A stretch of 64,000 nucleotides of DNA, taken from NCBI RefSeq assembly GCF_030013205.1, contig NZ_CP122648.1, one strand, 5' to 3'. The position numbers and the translations under genes were made by a program. Source of the DNA: Escherichia coli. GTDB taxonomy: Bacteria; Pseudomonadota; Gammaproteobacteria; Enterobacterales; Enterobacteriaceae. Below the pieces are notes generated by a model. That model was not told the origin of the DNA, made no database searches, and saw only the letters and a program-made list of their open reading frames with translations. Every line of letters begins with the position of its first letter. Position 1 is the stretch's first letter. Shown here piece after piece: positions 1,733-10,540 of this stretch.

Positions 1733-1756
1733 AGTGTTGCCTTTTTGTTATCAATA

Positions 1757-1784
1757 AAAAAGGCCCCCCGATTTGGGAGGCCTT
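1757..1784 (-). terminator. pheA attenuator/terminator hairpin between pheL and pheA
   Basis: GC-rich hairpin (aggcctcccaaatcggggggcct on the minus strand) followed by a T-run, directly after the pheL stop. Confidence 0.65.
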
Positions 1785-1830
1785 ATTGTTCGTCTTCGCA
1801 TTCTGTTTCACACGACGAAACGCCTCCCAT

Positions 1831-1878
1831 TCAGGGGAAGGTAAAAAAGAATGCGAAGAAAAACGGTGTGTGTTTCAT
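1831..1878 (-). CDS. pheL: pheA leader peptide
   Basis: Minus-strand mini-ORF MKHTPFFFAFFFTFP (15 aa, Phe-rich) with stop at 1831-1833, just upstream of pheA. Confidence 0.85.
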   Translation of the reverse strand: MKHTPFFFAFFFTFP

Positions 1879-1932
1879 GTTTGTTTCCTTAAGTGACTTT
1901 AGTACAGTACCCGTACTGTTTTCACGCTGTCA

Positions 1933-1959
1933 ACAAAAAACGCGCCCGAAGGTGCGTTG
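1933..1959. repeat. attL copy of 27-bp direct repeat (acaaaaaacgcgcccgaaggTgcgttg)
   Basis: Identical to 36563..36589 apart from one mismatch (T vs C); lies next to the integrase gene and abuts the pheL -35 region. Confidence 0.65.
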
Positions 1960-2045
1960 TAAAACCCACTGAATTCAATGTTTTCCCTTTGTTTTCAGTG
2001 GGTTTTGTTATTGGTGGGGGTTACTGATTACCCTATAAAACCCAC

Positions 2046-3035
2046 TTATGTGGATGAAATGTGGATGCCTCCTTTTAATGGATTAAGTGAAATTGCATCC
2101 TGGAGGAAATCAGGAGCGAGGTGCGCATAGGTCATAGTTTGCTGGATCGTGGCGTGCCCCATAATTCGCTGGAGCGTAAGTATATTTCCTCCATTAATCA
2201 TAAAGTGAGCAGCAAAGGTATGGCGTAGAACATGTACAGCCTGTCCTTTTGGTAGGTCTGGCTTAACACTGCGAAGCACCTTGCGATATTCTTCATAATT
2301 GACGTCAAACAAAAGGCCGGATTTCTTTGTTTTGATCTCACTAACAACTTCATCAGAGACAGGAATAATTCGAACTTTTCCGTTTTTAGTTTTGTTAAAC
2401 GTCACGCGATTATTGATGATGTGTTCCGCGCGCAGATTTTTCGCTTCTCCCCATCTCGCCCCAGTACTGAGACAAAGTAGCGTAATCCGCCGAGCATCAC
2501 CGCTTACTGCATCCAGCAATTTGGCGATTTCTTCCGTAGTGAGGTACGTCATTTCGGGTGATTTTCGTTTCAAAGAGGGGAGGGCGCGGAGTGGATTTTC
2601 TCCGTGAAATTCTCCGGCATTTGCCAGGAGTGTAAACATTCCTCCGAGATCCGACTCATCACGCCGAACAGTAGACTCTTTTACTCCCAAGGATAAACGG
2701 GAGCTTCGATAAGCTGCCATGAAACGAGCATTAATCTGGCTAACCCTTGGATCATTCATTTCTTTGATGATTTTTTTCAATCTGGTTAGAACGCCGTTAG
2801 CATATGGCTTATTGCGTCCACCCAATTCCCACCATAACGGAAGCAGATCTGAGAGATGACGTTGCTCTGTTGGCTTTTCAAGCCATTCCTTATCGTGCAT
2901 GTGGCTGAGAACATAGCGCTCAAAGGCCACTGCATCTGCCTTTTTCTTAAAAATCCGCTGGATCCGACGTCCACTTCGGCCACGCGGTCTAACATCCACT
3001 TTATACCGTCCACCATCGAGTGCTTTAATTGCCAT
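2046..3035 (-). CDS. int: Phage integrase (tyrosine recombinase, P2 Int family)
   Basis: MAIKALDGGRYKVDVRPRGR... and C-terminal ...VLRHTFAAHFMINGGNILTLQRIMGHATIQQTMTYAHLAPDFLQDAISLNPL closely resemble P2 Int; start chosen at the Met with a GGAGGG RBS (the ORF could extend to 3068). Confidence 0.85.
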   Translation of the reverse strand: MAIKALDGGRYKVDVRPRGRSGRRIQRIFKKKADAVAFERYVLSHMHDKEWLEKPTEQRHLSDLLPLWWELGGRNKPYANGVLTRLKKIIKEMNDPRVSQINARFMAAYRSSRLSLGVKESTVRRDESDLGGMFTLLANAGEFHGENPLRALPSLKRKSPEMTYLTTEEIAKLLDAVSGDARRITLLCLSTGARWGEAKNLRAEHIINNRVTFNKTKNGKVRIIPVSDEVVSEIKTKKSGLLFDVNYEEYRKVLRSVKPDLPKGQAVHVLRHTFAAHFMINGGNILTLQRIMGHATIQQTMTYAHLAPDFLQDAISLNPLKGGIHISST

Positions 3036-3101: not shown

Positions 3102-3404
3102 TTAACCAATTTTCCTTTCGGATGGGGGTAAATCCGTTGGTTCTTGCCCATAGTGTGCGAGAGCCGGAGCTATCTGCCCGGATTCAGGCGCAATTTTTCC
3201 AGTCATAAACCACAACGCATATTTCTCAAATCTGGGGTTGTTTAGTATTTGCTCAATTACTTCAGCATTAGGGATAGTTTTACCGCTTTCATATCTCCAC
3301 AGAGCATCACGGTTTAAACCAAGCATTTTTGCTGTATCCGGGAGGCTAGTAAGTCTCTCGCTTTCACGCATGATTTTTATGCGCTCTCCAATAGTCATAC
3401 GCAT
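3102..3404 (-). CDS. P2 C-type immunity repressor
   Basis: ...YALWFMTGKIAPESGQIAPALAHYGQE matches the recalled P2 C repressor C-terminus; divergent from a cox-like gene; start uncertain (ORF extends to 3419). Confidence 0.7.
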   Translation of the reverse strand: MRMTIGERIKIMRESERLTSLPDTAKMLGLNRDALWRYESGKTIPNAEVIEQILNNPRFEKYALWFMTGKIAPESGQIAPALAHYGQEPTDLPPSERKIG

Positions 3405-5129: not shown

Positions 5130-5371
5130 CCATTCTGGACTACATCGCCGCCAATCCGGGTTGTAGCGGTGGAGAAATCGCCGCAGCACTGAATACCCCA
5201 ACCACAGCCATTAATGCGGAGTTACGCCGACTCTGGCGCAGCGGTTCAGTCATAAGAAAAGAGCGCAAAACAGGCGGTCGCTTTTCTTACCAGATAAACC
5301 CGATGCCGTTCGGGTGCGGCAATCCACTTACCAACATGTTTAACCAGCTACTGAAGGAAGCCAGAGCATGA
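5126..5371 (+). CDS. Small putative DNA-binding (winged-helix-like) protein
   Basis: 81-aa ORF overlapping the stop of the previous gene; basic, HTH-like segment. Confidence 0.4.
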   Translation: MTILDYIAANPGCSGGEIAAALNTPTTAINAELRRLWRSGSVIRKERKTGGRFSYQINPMPFGCGNPLTNMFNQLLKEARA

Positions 5372-5667
5372 GCGCCATCAACCACCAGGAATTACGCGAA
5401 CTGGCGACTGACCTGCAACGAATGGCAACGCCTCAAAAATTACTGGCGTTTCGCGCAATGCTCTCGCCGTCTGCTGTGCTGGCGCTGCTGGATGAGCTGG
5501 AGCACGCCAGAACCACACCTCTCGCCATTCGCCTGACGCTCCATCATGAAATCGCTGATTTCTGCGCGACATTGGAGGCGCCAGGCGAACCGGAAACGCC
5601 GGAAGCAATACAGCAAGAGCTGCTGCAACGCATTGACAAGGTTTTTGATTTTTTTCTGAACCACTAA
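5368..5667 (+). CDS. Hypothetical early-operon protein
   Basis: 99-aa ORF with overlapping stop/start. Confidence 0.4.
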   Translation: MSAINHQELRELATDLQRMATPQKLLAFRAMLSPSAVLALLDELEHARTTPLAIRLTLHHEIADFCATLEAPGEPETPEAIQQELLQRIDKVFDFFLNH

Positions 5668-5790
5668 GAAACCAGAACATGCACACACAAAAAAACCGCT
5701 TGCCATGCCGTAATCAGTCAGGTTACATTTCCGCTGCACCTCATAAAACGGGTGCCGGGATTCTCAACCCGATACAGAGCAAAGCGCATA

Positions 5791-5810
5791 ACCGCGCCAG
5801 CGGTTTTTTT
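5791..5810 (+). terminator. Putative intrinsic terminator inside the noncoding gap
   Basis: accgc-gcca-gcggt hairpin followed by a run of seven T. Confidence 0.35.
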
Positions 5811-5989
5811 GTGCGTACTGTATTGCCACGTCTTTTTCGCGTCAGAATTATGGCGGGGCGTACGGGGCCGACTTCGGTCGGGCCGGATTCTTTGCTCTCC
5901 GGTGTTGAGAACCCTGTACGTCTCGCCACCCCGAGATTCTCAACTCTGGATGGTGAGTTATTTCTATCACCGAGCAAAGAGGCCACACC

Positions 5990-6220
5990 ATGGCAAACCG
6001 CAAACAGCACCGCGCATACGCTGCGCGTCGTCACATCCAGACTGAAATCAACCGCAGACTTTCCCGCGCATTCCGCGTCGCTAAAATCATGCACATCAAT
6101 ATGCTGCATGAGCGTAGCTGCGAACTTTCAAACCTCTATTCATCCGCTGTTTTCAGCTATCTGGCGGATGATCTGCGCGAGCTTCAGCAGCTCTTCCAGC
6201 AGCAAAACAAACCCCATTAA
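5990..6220 (+). CDS. Hypothetical protein
   Basis: 76-aa ORF preceded by an AAGAGG RBS. Confidence 0.4.
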   Translation: MANRKQHRAYAARRHIQTEINRRLSRAFRVAKIMHINMLHERSCELSNLYSSAVFSYLADDLRELQQLFQQQNKPH

Positions 6221-6292
6221 TTCCTGTTCCGGGCCTTTCCTGCACCTTGCGGCGGGAGGCCTTCGCACATCTGTAGTAAAGAGAATTGCAGC

Positions 6293-6682
6293 ATGATTGA
6301 CGCTCATGACTTCACAAGATGGGTGCGCACACAGGACACCCGTCTGGCTCCCGTTCTTCAGGGATTATTTGATCTCTACATCCGTGGTCGTGACAACAGA
6401 GCACGCACCACAAAACCGGAGAATGCAGACACCCTTTATTTCACAGTAGACGACTGCTACCGCGTGGACTTCACACCACACGGGCTGGCGTTGCACTGCC
6501 TGACACCACACGGCGAATCACTACTGGCGTATTACGACTCCCCGGCCTCCGTATTTGCGGCAATGCTGGCGCATCGCACTGCTGGCGGGTGTGCCTCGCT
6601 GAGTGAATACACCGCTGAATTTGACCGCCTTTCCGCCATCTTCTCGCAGGAGTGGCAGCGCGTGACGGGATACCAGCCATGA
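6293..6682 (+). CDS. Hypothetical protein immediately upstream of gpA
   Basis: 129-aa ORF overlapping the gpA start. Confidence 0.4.
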   Translation: MIDAHDFTRWVRTQDTRLAPVLQGLFDLYIRGRDNRARTTKPENADTLYFTVDDCYRVDFTPHGLALHCLTPHGESLLAYYDSPASVFAAMLAHRTAGGCASLSEYTAEFDRLSAIFSQEWQRVTGYQP

Positions 6683-9504
6683 GTGAGTTTGCATGGAGCT
6701 GGAATGAACCACGACCAGCCATTGATCCGGCCAGATTTACGGAGCGCAGGCAGGAAACTGAAACCGACTTGCAACGCGCCATCCGTTACTACCTTGAGGC
6801 GGACAAAAAGGCCCGGGAAGAACAGGAAGCGAAGGAGGAAGCCTTTTTCGCACAATCCGCCATGGGTAAAAAACTCATGGCATCCCTTGAGGAAGCCGGA
6901 CAGCGTGAAAAGCTGGCACAGAGCATCATCAGTAAGCGCCGGGCAACAGAACAAGACCCAGTAGCCCGTGCCTTTGCCACACTAAAGGCACTACCTGTTT
7001 ATCTGCGTGAACCACTGAGCCGCCACCTCTCTTTCCTGCGCAAAAAACAGGAAGCCGATCGCCAGAAAGGCAAAAAGAGCTGGCAGGCGGAACGCTATGC
7101 ACGCGGAACCCTGCGCAAAATATTCGAACGTCTAGATCGCACTGACGGACGCTGGCTGACACCGGGTTATCGCTCCCTTGCCGGGCGCGAACGCCTGGAC
7201 GATTTGCTTTACCTGCCGCAGCTCAACAAGCACCAGATACAGACGCTGGCCACCATGACCGCGGCGATGTTCAGCAGCACCTTCGAAACACTCTGCGATG
7301 GCTTTGGTGCCAGAGATGGCGAGCTGACCATGGATGTAATGTTGAAGGCTTACCGGATGCTGGCTCGTATCGCATTACGCCTGCACATCATGCCGCCACA
7401 TTACGAAGCCCTGAACAAGAGCGAACCGGATACGGAACTGCTGCCGGGCGCAATCCTTCGCCTGACCTGTGCGGACTGGTGGAAACGCAAACTGTGGCTG
7501 TTACGTTGCGAGTGGAGAGAAGAACAACTCCGCGCCGCCTGTCTGGTTTCCAGAAAAACATCACCCTATCTGAGCCAGGACGCGTTAAGCGAGTTTCGCG
7601 CACAGCGCGAGAAAACACGCGATTTCCTGAAAAGTTTCATGCTGGAAAATGAAGACGGGTTCACGATTGATCTCGAGACGGTGTATTACGCGGGAGTAAG
7701 TAACCCGGTTCACCGTAAGGCAGAAATGATGGCCACCATGAAGGGACTGGAACTTCTGGCCGAAGCCCGTGGCGACAGAGCGGTGTTTCTGACTGTCACC
7801 TGCCCGTCAAAATACCACGCAACAACGGAGAACGGTCATCCGAATCCCAAATGGAACGGGGCCACCATGCGCGACTCCAGCGATTACCTGGTTAACACGT
7901 TTTTTGCGGCGGTCCGCAAGAAACTGAACCGCGACGGCCTGCGCTGGTATGGCATCCGCACGGTGGAGCCTCACCATGACGGCACCGTGCACTGGCATAT
8001 GATGGTCTTTGCCCATCCGGAAGAAATCGACACCATTGTGTCCCACACCCGCGATATTGCCATTCAGGAAGATCGTCACGAGCTGGGCGATGATATTACT
8101 CCGCGCTTTAAGGCGGAGTATGTAGACGGCTCAAAAGGCACGCCAACCAGCTACATCGCCACCTACATCGGAAAGAACCTGGACAGCCGCGCCGTGGATG
8201 GCATCGACCCGAAAACAGGCAAACCACGCGTTGACCACGAAACCGGAAAATCAATGGCCGAGAGCGTGGAGCGCGCCATCGGCTGGGCGCGCCTTCACCG
8301 GGTCCGCCAGTTCCAGTTCTTTGGCATCCCATCCCGTCAGGTGTGGCGTGAACTGCGCCGCCTTGCCAGCCAGATGGCACGCAACCCGGAAGGCCCGCAA
8401 CGGCTGAAGGATGACGCAATGGACGCGGTTCTTGCTGCCGCTGATGCCGGATGTTTTGCCACCTACATTGAGAAACAGGGCGGCGTACTTGTTCCACGCA
8501 AAGACTACCTGATTCGCACCGCCTACGACCTCGCAGATGAGCTGAACGATTACGGCGAACAGAGCGTACAGATTTACGGGATCTGGTCACCACTCATCGG
8601 GGAATCCTCCCGTGTGTGCACGCACCCGGATAACTGGAAGCTGGTAAGACGTAAACCGGAAGCGGAAGACAGCACCCGCGAAAATGGTTTTGACCTTCAG
8701 GGCGGCCCTGCCGCCCCTTGGACTCGTGGCAATAACTGTCCCCGTGTACAGGAAGCAGGCAACAGCGGGACAGAACTGTCGGAAGAGCAACCAACACCGT
8801 GGCCGCAGATCCCTGACGGCGTTGATGTGGATGAATGGATGCGCTCACTGAAACGGCACGAACGCCGGGCGCTGATGCGTTCGCTGCGTGACAAACAGGC
8901 AAAAAACAGCAGTGATGAAATGCAGAGCTGGACACAGAGCCGCAAACAGCAGCGGCCTTTGCCTGATAACCACGAATTACTCGCTAAAGAATGGCGGGAG
9001 TCTGCCGAATCTCTCGGCCTGCATATCGGTGAACAGCAGATGCAGCACCTGTTACGGGGCGGCAGCCTGTACGTTGACGGCAGCATCATTGCACCGCAGG
9101 GATTTGAAATTGTACGCAAACCGGATACCCGCCCGGACAGCCGAATCACGCAGCTCTGGCAGCGCCTGAGCCGTAATCATGGCGTAAGCAGCACGGAGAT
9201 CCGCCATAACCCGGTCGCCAGCTATCTGACACAGCTGGGGGCATCAGACCCTGAAGCCGCCGCACGCCTGGCATCCACACTTCAGCAGGACCAGAACACC
9301 ATGAAAACCCCCGTTACCGTGCTTTCTGACATGCTGCGCGCCATCCGTGACGCAGAGCACGCACAGAGAATCAGTGAAACAACTGAACGCGCCCGCCGCA
9401 AAGCAGACCTGCTGCGGGGTGGCCTGATCAGTGGAAACAAAAAACAGACAGAAACGGGATTCACAAATCCCGTAAATGAGCAAAAAACGTGCCGCGATGT
9501 ATGA
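6679..9504 (+). CDS. Replication initiation protein gpA (rolling-circle HUH endonuclease, P2 A family)
   Basis: 941-aa ORF starting MSEFAWSWNEP...; contains ...DGTVHWHMMVFAHPEE (HUH-type motif); position after the early operon as in P2. Confidence 0.8.
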   Translation: MSEFAWSWNEPRPAIDPARFTERRQETETDLQRAIRYYLEADKKAREEQEAKEEAFFAQSAMGKKLMASLEEAGQREKLAQSIISKRRATEQDPVARAFATLKALPVYLREPLSRHLSFLRKKQEADRQKGKKSWQAERYARGTLRKIFERLDRTDGRWLTPGYRSLAGRERLDDLLYLPQLNKHQIQTLATMTAAMFSSTFETLCDGFGARDGELTMDVMLKAYRMLARIALRLHIMPPHYEALNKSEPDTELLPGAILRLTCADWWKRKLWLLRCEWREEQLRAACLVSRKTSPYLSQDALSEFRAQREKTRDFLKSFMLENEDGFTIDLETVYYAGVSNPVHRKAEMMATMKGLELLAEARGDRAVFLTVTCPSKYHATTENGHPNPKWNGATMRDSSDYLVNTFFAAVRKKLNRDGLRWYGIRTVEPHHDGTVHWHMMVFAHPEEIDTIVSHTRDIAIQEDRHELGDDITPRFKAEYVDGSKGTPTSYIATYIGKNLDSRAVDGIDPKTGKPRVDHETGKSMAESVERAIGWARLHRVRQFQFFGIPSRQVWRELRRLASQMARNPEGPQRLKDDAMDAVLAAADAGCFATYIEKQGGVLVPRKDYLIRTAYDLADELNDYGEQSVQIYGIWSPLIGESSRVCTHPDNWKLVRRKPEAEDSTRENGFDLQGGPAAPWTRGNNCPRVQEAGNSGTELSEEQPTPWPQIPDGVDVDEWMRSLKRHERRALMRSLRDKQAKNSSDEMQSWTQSRKQQRPLPDNHELLAKEWRESAESLGLHIGEQQMQHLLRGGSLYVDGSIIAPQGFEIVRKPDTRPDSRITQLWQRLSRNHGVSSTEIRHNPVASYLTQLGASDPEAAARLASTLQQDQNTMKTPVTVLSDMLRAIRDAEHAQRISETTERARRKADLLRGGLISGNKKQTETGFTNPVNEQKTCRDV

Positions 9505-9552
9505 AGCGCGCACAAAACAGGCAAAAGCGGGATTCCAGAATCCCGTAAACGG
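9452..9552. repeat. Two ~25-bp palindromic repeats (cgggattcNNNNaatcccgtaaa) 73 bp apart, spanning the gpA 3' end and the parM upstream region
   Basis: aaacgggattcacaaatcccgtaaa at 9452-9476 and aaagcgggattccagaatcccgtaaacgg at 9524-9552. Confidence 0.5.
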
Positions 9553-9580: not shown

Positions 9581-10540
9581 ATGAAAATTTGTATCGACGA
9601 CGGCTCCACCAACATCAAGCTGGCATGGACTGAGAACGGCGAACGCCGCAACGCCATCAGCCCGAACAGCTTCAAGTCGGAATGGTCTGCGCCGTTCGGT
9701 GGCTCGCAGCCTGCGAACTACATGCTTGATGGCGTGCGCTATGGTTTTGATCCGGTCAGCGATCGCTTTGTCCAGACGACCGACACGCAATACCAGTACA
9801 GCGATGTGAATGTCATTGCCATTCATCACGCGCTGGTCAAATCAGGCATCACGCCTCAGGAGGTGGATGTGGTTGTCACCCTGCCACTGAGCGAGTATTT
9901 CGACACAAACGCACAGCCAGACATGGCCAACATCAACCGCAAAAAAGCGAACGTTATGCGCCCGGTGGAGTACCAGAACGGCGAAGCATTCACTATCCGT
10001 AACGTGCGGGTTATGCCTGAATCCATTCCGGCTGGTTTTAAGGCACTGGCTGACATGAGTCCGTTTGAATCCCTGCTGATTGTGGATTTGGGCGGAACCA
10101 CGCTGGATGTGGCAAAGGTTCAGGGGCAACTGGCAGGTATCAGCCAGGTGTTTTGCGATCCACACGTAGGCGTTTCTCTGATGGCTGATGCCGTGCTGTC
10201 GGTGATGGCCACTAACGGTATGCGTACCAGTCACCACATCGCCAATACCATTATTGAGCACCGTCACGATGAAGCCTGGCTACGCCAGCACATTCACAAT
10301 GACGCGCATTACAACAGCCTGATGGCGGTTATTCGTGAAAAGGAGGAAACACTGAAACAACGCGTGATCCGCGCGCTGGCGGGTTTTTCGGGTTACGGGC
10401 GGGTGATGGTTGTAGGTGGAGGAGCGGAGATTGTGGCACCCGCTATCCGCGAAGCCTGCGGAGTTAATGCGACTTTCATCGCGGACGGGGTGCCACAGTT
10501 TGCTCTGGTTAATGGGCTGTACGCAATGGACAAGGAGTAA
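9581..10540 (+). CDS. parM: ParM/StbA-like actin-family segregation ATPase
   Basis: MKICIDDGSTNIKLAW...ISPNSF...YSDVNVIAIHHAL...VMPESIPAG...IVDLGGTTLD...VGGGAEI...ALVNGLYAM tracks plasmid R1 ParM along its whole length (recalled alignment). Confidence 0.8.
   Translation: MKICIDDGSTNIKLAWTENGERRNAISPNSFKSEWSAPFGGSQPANYMLDGVRYGFDPVSDRFVQTTDTQYQYSDVNVIAIHHALVKSGITPQEVDVVVTLPLSEYFDTNAQPDMANINRKKANVMRPVEYQNGEAFTIRNVRVMPESIPAGFKALADMSPFESLLIVDLGGTTLDVAKVQGQLAGISQVFCDPHVGVSLMADAVLSVMATNGMRTSHHIANTIIEHRHDEAWLRQHIHNDAHYNSLMAVIREKEETLKQRVIRALAGFSGYGRVMVVGGGAEIVAPAIREACGVNATFIADGVPQFALVNGLYAMDKE

What the first reader, a model, noticed from the sequence alone, without database searches (positions are those of the whole stretch)
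5690..5990. 300-bp noncoding gap in the early operon with GATTCT-containing repeats and a terminator
Between two early genes there is no convincing ORF (the 205-aa frame is low-complexity and overlaps the better 5990..6220 ORF). The gap holds a short-stem terminator (5791..5810) and three related elements built on GGATTCT plus TTCTCAAC/GAGCAAAG (5757-5784, 5885-5911, 5933-5982), one inverted. The first resembles the CGGGATTC...CCCG palindromes upstream of parM. It could be a structured RNA, a protein-binding array or a remnant of cargo exchange.
Basis: seen in the sequence. Interest (0 to 1): 0.45.

Follow-up and report, generated by a model that had tools for sequence, protein, structure and literature searches.

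The report
Phage antisense-RNA immunity switch (IsrK–C4)
The "noncoding gap" is a complete, well-known phage RNA switch: a small antisense RNA (C4/CI type) flanked by two copies of its own target sites, which most likely keeps an anti-repressor gene of this P2-like prophage switched off. It is an ordinary member of a known family in a setting I could not find described.

Summary
Window 5690-5990 holds no real gene.
- targets a1/b1 lie in the IsrK-type RNA;
- the complementary a'/b' segments are exposed in C4 (this is the "inverted" copy);
- targets a2/b2 lie just downstream, and b2 covers the Shine-Dalgarno sequence of the 76-aa ORF at 5990.

That ORF is a homologue of the P4 epsilon derepression protein. 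Spacing matches P1 immI to within 5 nt. Across 16 named phages and 80 viral contigs, the loops and both target sets change together (15 allele pairs on one C4 backbone).

Most likely mechanism: C4 pairs with a2/b2, blocks translation of the epsilon-like anti-repressor, and probably lowers expression of the replication gene A downstream. The short IsrK-type RNA acts as a decoy for C4.

The suggested link to the parM-upstream palindromes is not supported. The RefSeq "ash family protein" called here appears to be a translation of this RNA module. Verdict: new member of a known kind, low to moderate interest.

The parts
5700..5729 (+). Promoter-like site of the module: -35 TTGCCA at 5700-5705, -10 TACATT at 5724-5729 (or TTACAT with a 17-nt spacer). 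Predicted start near G5736.
   Evidence: Consensus scan. All 16 compared modules, including P4 and P1, carry a -35/-10 pair at the same position, about 7 nt before the IsrK model start; in P1 the site falls on the promoter annotated P1c4/P51b. Activity was not tested.
5736..5810 (+). IsrK-type / seqA-type short RNA. It has three hairpins and carries target copies a1 and b1.
   Evidence: Rfam RF01394, 62.8 bits (gathering 50), E 4.6e-11, full model 1-77. Fold.
5761..5768 (+). a1 target, UUCUCAAC, in the loop of the second IsrK hairpin.
   Evidence: 8-nt Watson-Crick complement of the C4 junction GUUGAGAA. Duplex -15.1 kcal/mol.
5776..5784 (+). b1 target, AGAGCAAAG.
   Evidence: 9-nt complement of the C4 hairpin-2 loop. 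Duplex -12.5 kcal/mol.
5790..5811 (+). Rho-independent terminator ending the short IsrK-type RNA. It must be read through to make C4 and the downstream mRNA from this promoter.
   Evidence: Terminator scan. It is the third hairpin of the Rfam isrK model. An IsrK-family match lies just upstream of C4 in all 16 modules, above gathering in 15 and 35.1 bits in P1.
5846..5933 (+). C4 / CI-type antisense RNA. The Rfam match is 5846-5933. The mature RNA predicted by homology with the annotated 77-nt P1 C4 is 5852-5930 (79 nt).
   Evidence: Rfam RF01695, 78.5 bits (gathering 45), E 1.1e-13. MFE -47.6 kcal/mol, z -4.94, 0 of 200 shuffles as good. In the 16-sequence consensus fold, 15 of 27 pairs show compensatory changes. 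P1 mature ends.
5887..5898 (+). b' specificity loop of C4 hairpin 2, AUUCUUUGCUCU.
   Evidence: Unpaired in the fold. Complementary to b1 and b2.
5904..5911 (+). a' single-stranded junction of C4, GUUGAGAA.
   Evidence: Unpaired in the fold. Complementary to a1 and a2.
5937..5944 (+). a2 target, UUCUCAAC, 6 nt after the predicted C4 3' end.
   Evidence: Duplex -11.4 kcal/mol. Same position as P1 a2.
5972..5981 (+). b2 target, GAGCAAAGAG. It overlaps the Shine-Dalgarno AAGAGG (5977-5982), 8 nt before the ATG at 5990.
   Evidence: 9 Watson-Crick pairs plus one G-U pair with the b' loop (and reading of the sequence). Duplex -17.8 kcal/mol. Same position as P1 b2, which covers the icd ribosome site.
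5990..6220 (+). First regulated gene: a 76-aa epsilon-like derepression (anti-repressor) protein.
   Evidence: Pfam Derepression PF25738, E 7.9e-7. 33% identity to P4 epsilon, E 5e-9. P4 epsilon itself hits PF25738 at E 1e-50. Coding signature: synonymous to nonsynonymous 2769:2153. Annotated 'derepression protein' in phage P88.
6293..9504 (+). Downstream genes probably affected by polarity: ORF129 (6293-6682) and replication endonuclease gpA (6679-9504).
   Evidence: Annotation of the identical E. coli locus and PHROG 91. No promoter-like site between 5852 and 6400. Co-regulation is inferred, not shown.

Best explanation
Window 5700-5990 is a complete antisense-RNA immunity cassette. It is of the type found in P1/P7 immI (c4), in the P4 immunity region (seqA-CI-seqC) and in Gifsy-1 (IsrK-STnc1160). 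Here it sits inside the early operon of a P88-like (Xuanwuvirus, P2-family) prophage integrated beside pheA.

Proposed working:
1. A promoter at 5700-5729 starts transcription near 5736.
2. Most transcripts stop at the terminator (5790-5811). This gives a roughly 75-nt IsrK-type RNA that displays target copies a1 and b1.
3. Read-through transcripts, and early-operon transcripts from upstream, contain the C4 precursor. By homology with P1 it would be trimmed to a roughly 79-nt RNA (5852-5930).
4. The exposed hairpin loop b' and single-stranded junction a' of C4 pair with b2 and a2 on the mRNA, in trans or in cis.
5. b2 covers the Shine-Dalgarno sequence of the 76-aa epsilon-like derepression gene, so its translation is blocked.
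6. By polarity, transcription into ORF129 and replication gene A is probably reduced.
7. The short a1/b1 RNA competes for the same C4 segments. It can therefore act as a decoy that relieves repression, as shown for IsrK in Gifsy-1.
8. The a/b sequences set specificity. They differ between otherwise near-identical phages.

Shown here: family membership, fold, complementarity, geometry, co-variation, and homology of the regulated gene.
Inferred: promoter activity, processing, translational block, polarity on gene A, and the decoy role.
For: - Rfam hits above gathering for both RNAs.
- C4 fold: z -4.94. Fifteen of 27 pairs are compensatory across 16 phages.
- The loop and junction are complementary to both flanking target pairs by 9, 9, 8 and 8 nt. 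No shuffle out of 20000 reproduced this.
- Duplex energies range from -11 to -18 kcal/mol for cognate pairs and from -5 to -7.5 for non-cognate pairs.
- Spacing equals annotated P1 immI within 5 nt. In nt, P1 versus window: a1-b1 7/7, b1-C4 66/67, C4-a2 3/6, a2-b2 22/27, b2-ATG 10/8.
- All 16 modules have the IsrK match, C4 and a promoter-like site in the same order. Each C4 matches its own targets best.
- A viral-contig scan with a fixed C4 backbone found 15 allele pairs (11 loops, 8 junctions); a1 and a2 match the junction in all but one case, and b1/b2 co-vary in 11 of the 15, three being short on both.
- Forty-nine of 80 contigs have the same epsilon-like/gpA context.
- Between the window, P88 and Shae_phiSM, substitutions in the RNA region cluster in a1, b1, a', b', a2 and b2.
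- The regulated ORF is epsilon-like. The prophage repressor is 52% identical to P2 C, the repressor that P4 epsilon inactivates according to PMC8628076.
- Mechanism in relatives: c4 blocks ant expression at the ribosome site (PMC12197685; PMC8546580). IsrK activates in trans, and CI RNA pairs with seqA and seqC (PMC4825925).
Against: - There are no expression data for this locus. Promoter use, terminator read-through and processing are all untested.
- The Rfam c4-a1b1 model scores only 15.9 bits here against a gathering score of 46.7, although the overlapping isrK model passes.
- Unlike P1 and P4, no Icd-like leader ORF lies between b2 and the anti-repressor. The polarity step therefore cannot simply be copied from P1.
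- In P4 the homologous RNA acts mainly through transcription termination, and in Gifsy-1 the published model is activation through an upstream ORF. The dominant mode here is therefore uncertain.
- The predicted fold of the full 275-nt read-through RNA breaks the C4 stem and pairs b'/a' with b2/a2 in cis. That structure has an ensemble frequency of only 0.0012.
Confidence: 0.8

Rival explanations
1. P4-type mode. C4 acts mainly by provoking premature transcription termination when it pairs with a1/b1 and a2/b2 on the nascent transcript. It is then primarily an immunity factor that keeps replication gene A (and ParM) silent, rather than a translational repressor of the epsilon-like gene. This is not exclusive of the best explanation.
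For: The P4 immunity region gives the same two Rfam hits in the same order and with a terminator: C4 74.9 bits and isrK 60.8 bits. In P4, CI RNA causes termination by pairing with seqA and seqC (PMC4825925). Here the cassette lies directly upstream of the replication gene, as in P4. No promoter-like site lies between the cassette and ORF129/A.
Against: b2 overlaps the Shine-Dalgarno sequence exactly as in P1, where the primary event is a translational block. No terminator with a U-run was found downstream of a2/b2. The hairpin at 6231-6262 lacks a U-tract.
Confidence: 0.3
2. Gifsy-1-type activation through an upstream reading frame. Ribosomes start at the conserved AUG in the 5' strand of C4 (5850) when the RNA is refolded by the short IsrK-type RNA. 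They translate the long frame to its stop at 6294-6296, which overlaps the ATG of ORF129 (ATGA), and so couple expression of ORF129/gpA to the switch.
For: In Gifsy-1, orf45 translation and coupling to anrP were shown. Its AUGs at +107 and +120 (PMC4825925) fall where the C4 5' strand AUGs lie in the modules compared here (+106 to +109). In 40 of 43 P2-like-context modules the frame from the C4 AUG is open for 147-149 aa and ends in ATGA on the next gene. The chance of a stop-free frame given the epsilon protein is 0.21, 0.09 and 0.008 in three relatives.
Against: The long frame shows no selection on its amino acids: synonymous to nonsynonymous 951:3900, with most variation at its codon position 2. 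The AUG is buried in the 17-bp C4 stem. The frame is interrupted in P1, GER2, PhiR12_1, PA2 and NAR688. A stop-free chance of 0.2 is not significant for the window itself.
Confidence: 0.12
3. The 205-aa frame 5679-6296 is a real 'Ash family' protein gene, as annotated in RefSeq, and the repeats are features of its coding sequence.
For: PGAP annotates it as 'ash family protein' in the identical E. coli locus. The frame is open in P88 and Shae_phiSM. There is a weak Pfam Phage_ASH match, E 0.0039.
Against: The Pfam match (aa 16-111, nt 5724-6011) coincides with the RNA module. In P4 the Phage_ASH match (E 8e-16) maps onto the CI/C4 RNA and seqC, not onto epsilon. The frame has no coding signature where it overlaps the epsilon-like ORF. 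Changes between relatives sit in the antisense loops and targets and are RNA-compensatory. The frame contains an intrinsic terminator. No NCBIfam model matches.
Confidence: 0.04
4. The region is a non-functional remnant left by module exchange, or a protein-binding repeat array related to the parM-upstream palindromes.
For: The region lies at a mosaic boundary. P88 has extra genes just upstream that the window lacks. CGGGATTC is shared with the parM-upstream palindromes.
Against: All parts are intact and score as full-length family members. Co-variation of the loop and both target sets across 15 alleles requires selection on pairing. The parM-upstream elements are DNA palindromes with a different core and lack both motifs.
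Confidence: 0.03

Closest known systems
P1/P7 immI operon (c4 antisense RNA - icd - ant1/ant2)
   Same: Same order and nearly the same spacing: promoter, a1, b1, C4 (a', b'), a2, and b2 over the ribosome-binding site of the first ORF. Same RNA family: P1 C4 scores 68.8 bits and the window 78.5 bits. An anti-repressor function lies downstream. The specificity loops differ between heteroimmune relatives (PMC12197685).
   Different: The host phage is P2-like, not P1-like. The first regulated ORF is an epsilon-type derepression protein rather than an Icd-like leader ORF followed by Ant. The a1/b1 element here ends in a clear intrinsic terminator and passes the isrK model, whereas P1 passes the c4-a1b1 model instead. 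The cassette sits inside the early operon, upstream of the replication gene.
Satellite phage P4 immunity region (PLE - seqA - CI RNA/seqB - seqC - kil/eta - epsilon - alpha)
   Same: Identical Rfam architecture: isrK-type with terminator, then C4-type. A promoter lies at the same position. An epsilon-family protein lies downstream, followed by the element's replication gene. P4 epsilon acts on the P2 C repressor (PMC8628076), and the repressor of this prophage is 52% identical to P2 C.
   Different: P4 has about 108 nt between seqA and CI, against 35 nt here. In P4 an Icd-like ORF follows seqC and epsilon comes later. Here b2 sits directly on the epsilon-like gene's ribosome site. ORF129 is unrelated to P4 orf151 and orf106. 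The replication protein is gpA-type rather than alpha primase. The P4 mechanism is termination, which was not tested here.
Gifsy-1 isrK - orf45/STnc1160 - anrP locus of Salmonella
   Same: A short terminated IsrK RNA plus a read-through transcript from one promoter. A processed stable RNA lies downstream of IsrK, followed by an anti-repressor gene. IsrK acts in trans on its own long transcript (PMC4825925). The window element passes the isrK model built on that RNA.
   Different: Gifsy-1 is a lambdoid prophage. Its published model is activation through translation of a 45-codon ORF coupled to anrP. Here the equivalent frame runs 148 codons through the epsilon-like gene and shows no coding signature.
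N15 secondary immunity (gene 32, annotated cA 'secondary immunity repressor', upstream of an anti-repressor gene)
   Same: IsrK-type (62.4 bits) and C4-type (78.8 bits) in tandem, upstream of small ORFs and an anti-repressor. The a-specificity is the same as in the window (UUCUCAAC with GUUGAGAA).
   Different: The b-specificity differs. The phage type differs (linear plasmid prophage), and so do the downstream genes.

Membership tests
C4 antisense RNA (Rfam RF01695; P1/P7 c4, P4 CI) | Covariance-model score at or above the curated gathering threshold over the full model. | tested here: met
   78.5 bits against 45, model positions 1-87 of 87, E 1.1e-13.
C4 antisense RNA (Rfam RF01695; P1/P7 c4, P4 CI) | Fold: a long closing stem enclosing two hairpins, with a single-stranded 3' junction. 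| tested here: met
   The MFE structure equals the family consensus, z -4.94. The consensus fold of 16 members has 15 of 27 pairs with compensatory changes.
C4 antisense RNA (Rfam RF01695; P1/P7 c4, P4 CI) | Two exposed segments (b' loop, a' junction) complementary to two same-strand target pairs, one upstream (a1 b1) and one downstream (a2 b2). | tested here: met
   Runs of 9, 9, 8 and 8 nt. None of 20000 shuffles reproduced them. Co-variation in 16 phages and across 15 alleles.
C4 antisense RNA (Rfam RF01695; P1/P7 c4, P4 CI) | b2 overlaps the ribosome-binding site of the first downstream ORF. | tested here: met
   b2 at 5972-5981 overlaps AAGAGG at 5977-5982, 8 nt before the ATG at 5990. 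P1 has 10 nt.
C4 antisense RNA (Rfam RF01695; P1/P7 c4, P4 CI) | The mature RNA is cut out of a longer precursor. From my own knowledge of the P1 and P4 literature: RNase P at the 5' end, then 3' trimming. | not testable with these tools
   Only homology is available. The P1 mature ends project onto 5852-5930.
C4 antisense RNA (Rfam RF01695; P1/P7 c4, P4 CI) | Represses expression of a downstream anti-repressor or lytic function in trans. | not testable with these tools
   The downstream gene is epsilon-like. Repression itself is inferred.
IsrK / seqA-type RNA (Rfam RF01394) | Covariance-model score at or above gathering. Three hairpins, the last being a Rho-independent terminator. | tested here: met
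   62.8 bits against 50, model positions 1-77 of 77. Terminator; fold.
IsrK / seqA-type RNA (Rfam RF01394) | Lies immediately upstream of, and on the same strand as, a C4-type RNA whose loops it matches. | tested here: met
   A 35-nt gap here. The same tandem occurs in all 15 other modules.
c4-a1b1 motif (Rfam RF03163) | Covariance-model score at or above gathering. | tested here: not met
   15.9 bits against 46.7. Of the compared loci, only P1 and NAR688 pass this model. The same element is captured by the isrK model, so I file it under IsrK rather than c4-a1b1.
P1-type immI operon (c4-icd-ant) | An Icd-like leader ORF directly after b2, translationally coupled to ant. | tested here: not met
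   The 76-aa ORF has no NCBIfam Icd-like match, whereas the P4 ORF after seqC does (NF033153, E 7.8e-21). The cassette works like immI but is not an icd-ant operon.
P4 epsilon / Pfam Derepression (PF25738) | Profile match and pairwise similarity to P4 epsilon. | tested here: met
   E 7.9e-7, aa 11-67. BLASTP 33% identity over 51 aa, E 5e-9. The match is partial: 76 aa against 95 aa.
P4 epsilon / Pfam Derepression (PF25738) | Binds and inactivates a P2-type C repressor. | not testable with these tools
   A P2 C homologue (52% identity) is encoded at 3102-3404 on the minus strand. The interaction was not tested.
Ash protein family (Pfam PF10554), as annotated by PGAP | A translated protein with conserved amino-acid sequence. 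| tested here: not met
   The match is weak (E 0.0039) and coextensive with the RNA module. The frame has no coding signature. It is interrupted in 5 of 16 modules. In P4 the profile maps onto the CI RNA region.

The most novel reading that the evidence does not exclude
P88-like P2-family phages carry a complete P4/P1-type RNA immunity cassette in front of an epsilon-type anti-repressor and their replication gene A (with ParM just beyond). This would give a P2-like phage a second, RNA-based and highly polymorphic immunity layer: at least 13 specificity alleles occur in this gene context. That layer would gate both derepression of the P2-type C repressor and replication. The same cassette may be the evolutionary source, or a sibling, of the immunity/derepression region of P4 satellites. 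As a corollary, the Pfam/PGAP 'Ash family protein', which has been used as an 'epsilon' marker for P4-like satellites, would be a translated RNA module rather than a protein.
Probability: 0.35. Interest if true: 0.5.

Novelty: new member of a known kind. Interest (0 to 1): 0.27.

Why it matters
The biology is textbook for P1, P7, P4 and N15, so the element itself will not surprise a specialist. Three points still have practical value.

1. **Annotation.** RefSeq annotation of the identical E. coli locus shows neither RNA. It calls a 205-aa "ash family protein" across them and omits the real 76-aa epsilon-like gene. Similar sequence occurs in 1398 of 5426 complete E. coli genomes.
2. **Satellite detection.** Pfam PF10554 maps onto the CI/C4 RNA region of P4 rather than onto epsilon. 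That profile has nevertheless been used as the epsilon marker when searching for P4-like satellites (PMC8628076). P2-like prophages with this cassette could therefore be miscounted.
3. **Biology of the P2 family.** A P2-family phage with an RNA-gated epsilon-like anti-repressor suggests a two-layer immunity and induction circuit that P2 itself lacks. The many loop/target alleles form a ready-made natural series for testing how antisense specificity sets heteroimmunity.

Tried and rejected
- **NCBIfam** gave nothing for the 205-aa frame, the 76-aa ORF, ORF129 or gpA.
- **PHROGs** placed the small ORFs only in families of unknown function.
- **Rfam c4-a1b1** is below threshold here. I therefore use the isrK model for the upstream element.
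- **CRISPR-DR33 and STnc410** gave weak Rfam hits at E 0.055 and 0.23, far below gathering. I dismissed both as chance.
- **Second promoter-like site at 5823-5851**. It would start transcription inside the C4 stem, and its -35 is not conserved in the lambdoid modules, where the gap is only 24 nt. I judge it not functional. AATTAT is the conserved 5' flank of C4.
- **ORF129 against P4 orf151 and orf106:** no similarity. Synteny with P4 stops at epsilon.
- **P2 itself:** no C4 or isrK in its early region.
- **Kinship with the parM-upstream repeats:** rejected.
- **Literature.** Searches for P88 / Xuanwuvirus / derepression protein together with antisense RNA, and for P2-like together with C4, found no paper describing this cassette in P2-like phages. 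This is absence within the held library only. The P1 genome paper (PMC523184) was not available.
- **Technical failures.** A first attempt to parse loci failed on file layout, and one regular expression failed. Both were repeated correctly.
Full report
**Setting.** The window is enterobacterial chromosome: the pheA leader at 1754-1879, RyfD, and an rrn operon. From about 2000 onward it holds a prophage. An identical E. coli locus (ETEC4079) is annotated in this order: integrase, a helix-turn-helix repressor, an early operon, replication endonuclease, ParM. The closest isolated phages are P88 and other Xuanwuvirus (Peduoviridae, P2 family), at 86% identity over the finding. The repressor at 3102-3404 (minus strand) is 52% identical to P2 C.

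**The observation.**
- The terminator has its stem at 5790-5805 and a T-run after it.
- TTCTCAAC occurs at 5761 and 5937 and, reverse-complemented, at 5904.
- GAGCAAAG occurs at 5777 and 5972 and, reverse-complemented, at 5890.

**What it is.** Rfam places two curated families in the gap, both over their full models and above gathering:
- isrK (RF01394) at 5736-5810, 62.8 bits against 50. Its third hairpin is the terminator.
- C4 antisense RNA (RF01695) at 5846-5933, 78.5 bits against 45.

C4 folds into the family structure: a 17-bp closing stem, two hairpins and a single-stranded junction. The energy is -47.6 kcal/mol, z -4.94. In an alignment with 15 other phage C4 RNAs, 15 of 27 pairs show compensatory changes.

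**The repeats explained.** I use the nomenclature of the annotated P1 genome.
- The unpaired junction of C4 (a', GUUGAGAA, 5904-5911) is complementary to a1 (5761-5768, in the loop of the second IsrK hairpin) and to a2 (5937-5944).
- The loop of C4 hairpin 2 (b', 5887-5898) is complementary to b1 (5776-5784) and to b2 (5972-5981).
- b2 overlaps the Shine-Dalgarno AAGAGG, 8 nt before the ATG at 5990.

The spacings equal those of P1 immI to within 5 nt. None of 20000 dinucleotide-preserving shuffles of the flanks reproduced the four matches.

**Comparative evidence.** I fetched P88, Shae_phiSM, P4, P1, N15, ST64B, mEp460, 1720a-02, GER2, PhiR12_1, PhiR46_1, PA2, P13374, an Stx2c phage and Klebsiella phage NAR688.
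- Every one has an IsrK-family match followed by C4 on the same strand, above gathering for both in all but P1, whose upstream element passes the c4-a1b1 model instead (isrK 35.1 bits).
- Every one has a -35/-10-like pair ending about 7 nt before the IsrK start, including P4 and P1; in P1 it falls on the annotated promoter P1c4/P51b.
- In each, the C4 loop and junction match that phage's own a1/b1 and a2/b2. In a cross matrix each C4 scores best on its own targets.
- The window and P88 are 86% identical, and nearly all differences in the RNA region fall in a1, b1, a', b', a2 and b2.
- A scan of viral contigs with the C4 backbone fixed and the two specificity segments free returned 80 loci. They carry 15 allele pairs (11 loops, 8 junctions). 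The a targets match in all but one case and the b targets co-vary in 11 of 15; three alleles match poorly on both b sites, possibly through G-U pairs that I did not score.
- Forty-nine of the 80 have the same epsilon-like/gpA context as the window. Thirty-one are lambdoid anti-repressor contexts.
- The window's allele recurs in 22 contigs. Its a-type equals that of N15, while its b-type differs.

This is the signature of selection on RNA-RNA pairing with diversifying specificity.

**The regulated gene.** The ORF at 5990-6220 (76 aa) matches Pfam Derepression (E 7.9e-7) and P4 epsilon (33% identity, E 5e-9). P4 epsilon is the archetype of that Pfam family (E 1e-50). P88's orthologue is annotated "derepression protein". 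Across 25 unique sequences, its frame has 50 of 107 variable sites at third positions and a synonymous to nonsynonymous ratio of 2769:2153. No promoter-like site lies between the cassette and ORF129/gpA. Transcription of the replication gene therefore has to cross the cassette.

**The "ash family protein".** RefSeq annotates the 205-aa frame 5679-6296 and omits the 76-aa ORF.
- Its weak Pfam Phage_ASH match (E 0.0039, aa 16-111) covers nt 5724-6011, that is, the RNA module.
- In P4, Phage_ASH (E 8e-16) matches aa 22-85 of the historic "cI ORF". That is nt 8521-8330, the CI/C4 RNA (8507-8420) plus seqC. The C-terminus of that ORF is Icd-like.
- Where the long frame overlaps the epsilon-like ORF, it has a synonymous to nonsynonymous ratio of 951:3900, with most variation at its codon position 2.
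- The frame from the conserved C4 AUG is interrupted in P1, GER2, PhiR12_1, PA2 and NAR688.

I conclude that the family is a conceptual translation of the RNA module.

One oddity remains. In 40 of 43 P2-like-context modules this frame stays open for 147-149 codons and stops in an ATGA on the next gene's start. The chance of a stop-free frame given the epsilon protein is 0.21, 0.09 and 0.008 in three relatives. In Gifsy-1 a 45-codon ORF starting at about the same position (A107) was shown to be translated and coupled to the anti-repressor (PMC4825925). I keep translational coupling as a minor rival.

**Mechanism.** In P1 and P7, c4 RNA binds the ant mRNA around the ribosome-binding site and blocks anti-repressor synthesis. 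Loop differences account for heteroimmunity (PMC12197685; PMC8546580). In P4, CI RNA is processed from the leader transcript and pairs with seqA and seqC to stop transcription before the replication genes (PMC4825925). In Gifsy-1, part of the transcripts read through the IsrK terminator. The long RNA is translationally silent, and short IsrK in trans activates it.

The window has all the parts in the same geometry, so the most likely working is as follows.
1. C4, made from read-through or early-operon transcripts, pairs with a2/b2 and closes the epsilon-like gene's ribosome site.
2. Polar effects follow on ORF129 and gene A.
3. The short a1/b1 RNA titrates C4.

Cognate duplex energies are -11 to -18 kcal/mol, against -5 to -7.5 for non-cognate combinations. 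The predicted fold of the 275-nt read-through RNA pairs b'/a' with b2/a2 in cis. This is consistent with a silent long form, but it is a low-frequency prediction. Promoter activity, processing, repression, polarity and the decoy role are all inferred.

**Differences from known systems.**
- No Icd-like leader ORF follows b2.
- The host phage is P2-like, and P2 itself has no such RNAs.
- The cassette sits inside the early operon, just upstream of gpA and ParM.
- ORF129 is unrelated to the P4 genes at the same position.

My literature searches found no description of this cassette in P2-like phages.

**The parM comparison.** The elements upstream of parM are two 39-nt direct repeats. Each holds a 19-nt palindrome, ACGGGATTC-N-GAATCCCGT. 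They share only CGGGATTC with the IsrK hairpin and lack both antisense motifs. They are a separate feature, plausibly the partition site.

**Verdict.** The feature is a canonical IsrK-C4 antisense immunity cassette and a new member of a known kind. Interest is low to moderate, with useful consequences for annotation.

Noticed in passing
window 5679-6296; L003 (P4) 8168-8584 minus strand: Pfam Phage_ASH (PF10554) and the PGAP name 'ash family protein' map onto the IsrK-C4-a2b2 RNA module, not onto a protein with a coding signature. In P4 the profile covers the CI RNA and seqC, while epsilon belongs to PF25738. RefSeq therefore calls a 205-aa ORF here and omits the real 76-aa epsilon-like gene. 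PMC8628076 used PF10554 as the 'epsilon' marker for P4-like satellites.
   Followed up: yes
window 5850-6296: The reading frame starting at the conserved AUG in the 5' strand of C4 stays open for 147-149 codons. It ends in ATGA on the start codon of the next gene in 40 of 43 related P2-like-context modules, although it shows no amino-acid-level selection. The chance of a stop-free frame is 0.21 to 0.008, depending on the relative. Translational coupling as with Gifsy-1 orf45 is possible. Unexplained.
   Followed up: partly
window 6221-6275: The 55 nt between the epsilon-like ORF and ORF129 are almost invariant between the window, P88 and Shae_phiSM (one variable column). That is more conserved than the flanking genes. 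They fold into a GC-rich hairpin (about 6231-6262) without a U-tract. It could be a processing, termination or anti-termination site.
   Followed up: partly
window 9438-9549: Two 39-nt direct repeats lie upstream of parM, spaced 73 nt start to start. Each contains a 19-nt palindrome ACGGGATTC-N-GAATCCCGT. This is plausibly the centromere or operator of the ParM partition system carried by this P2-like prophage. It is unrelated to the antisense motifs.
   Followed up: partly
window 9581-10540 and following: A P2-family prophage encodes ParM and a partitioning/stability protein directly after replication gene A (annotation of the identical E. coli locus and of P88). A plasmid-type segregation system in an integrated P2-like phage is unusual. 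Together with the P4-like RNA cassette, it hints at a plasmid-like phase.
   Followed up: no
L017-L096 (viral contigs) and L010 (N15): The a and b specificities assort independently: 11 loops and 8 junctions give 15 combinations on one C4 backbone. The window's a-type (UUCUCAAC with GUUGAGAA) is identical to that of N15, while its b-type is different. The same C4 backbone serves both P2-like (49) and lambdoid (31) contexts, so the cassette moves between phage families.
   Followed up: partly
L006 (phage GER2) 1298-1381: A strong Rfam hit to sRNA-Xcc1 (RF02221, 75.7 bits against gathering 53) lies about 500 nt downstream of that phage's IsrK-C4 cassette, just upstream of an antitermination gene.
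   Followed up: no
window 1754-3035: The prophage integrase (2046-3035, minus strand) lies directly beside the pheA leader and pheL (1754-1879), so this P88-like prophage is integrated next to the pheA operon.
   Followed up: no
NZ_CP122643.1 (E. coli ETEC4079): The genome that contains a sequence identical to the window has three separate places matching 5300-6700. It therefore probably carries several P88-like prophages or cassettes. Whether they carry different a/b alleles, as heteroimmune co-residents, was not checked.
   Followed up: no
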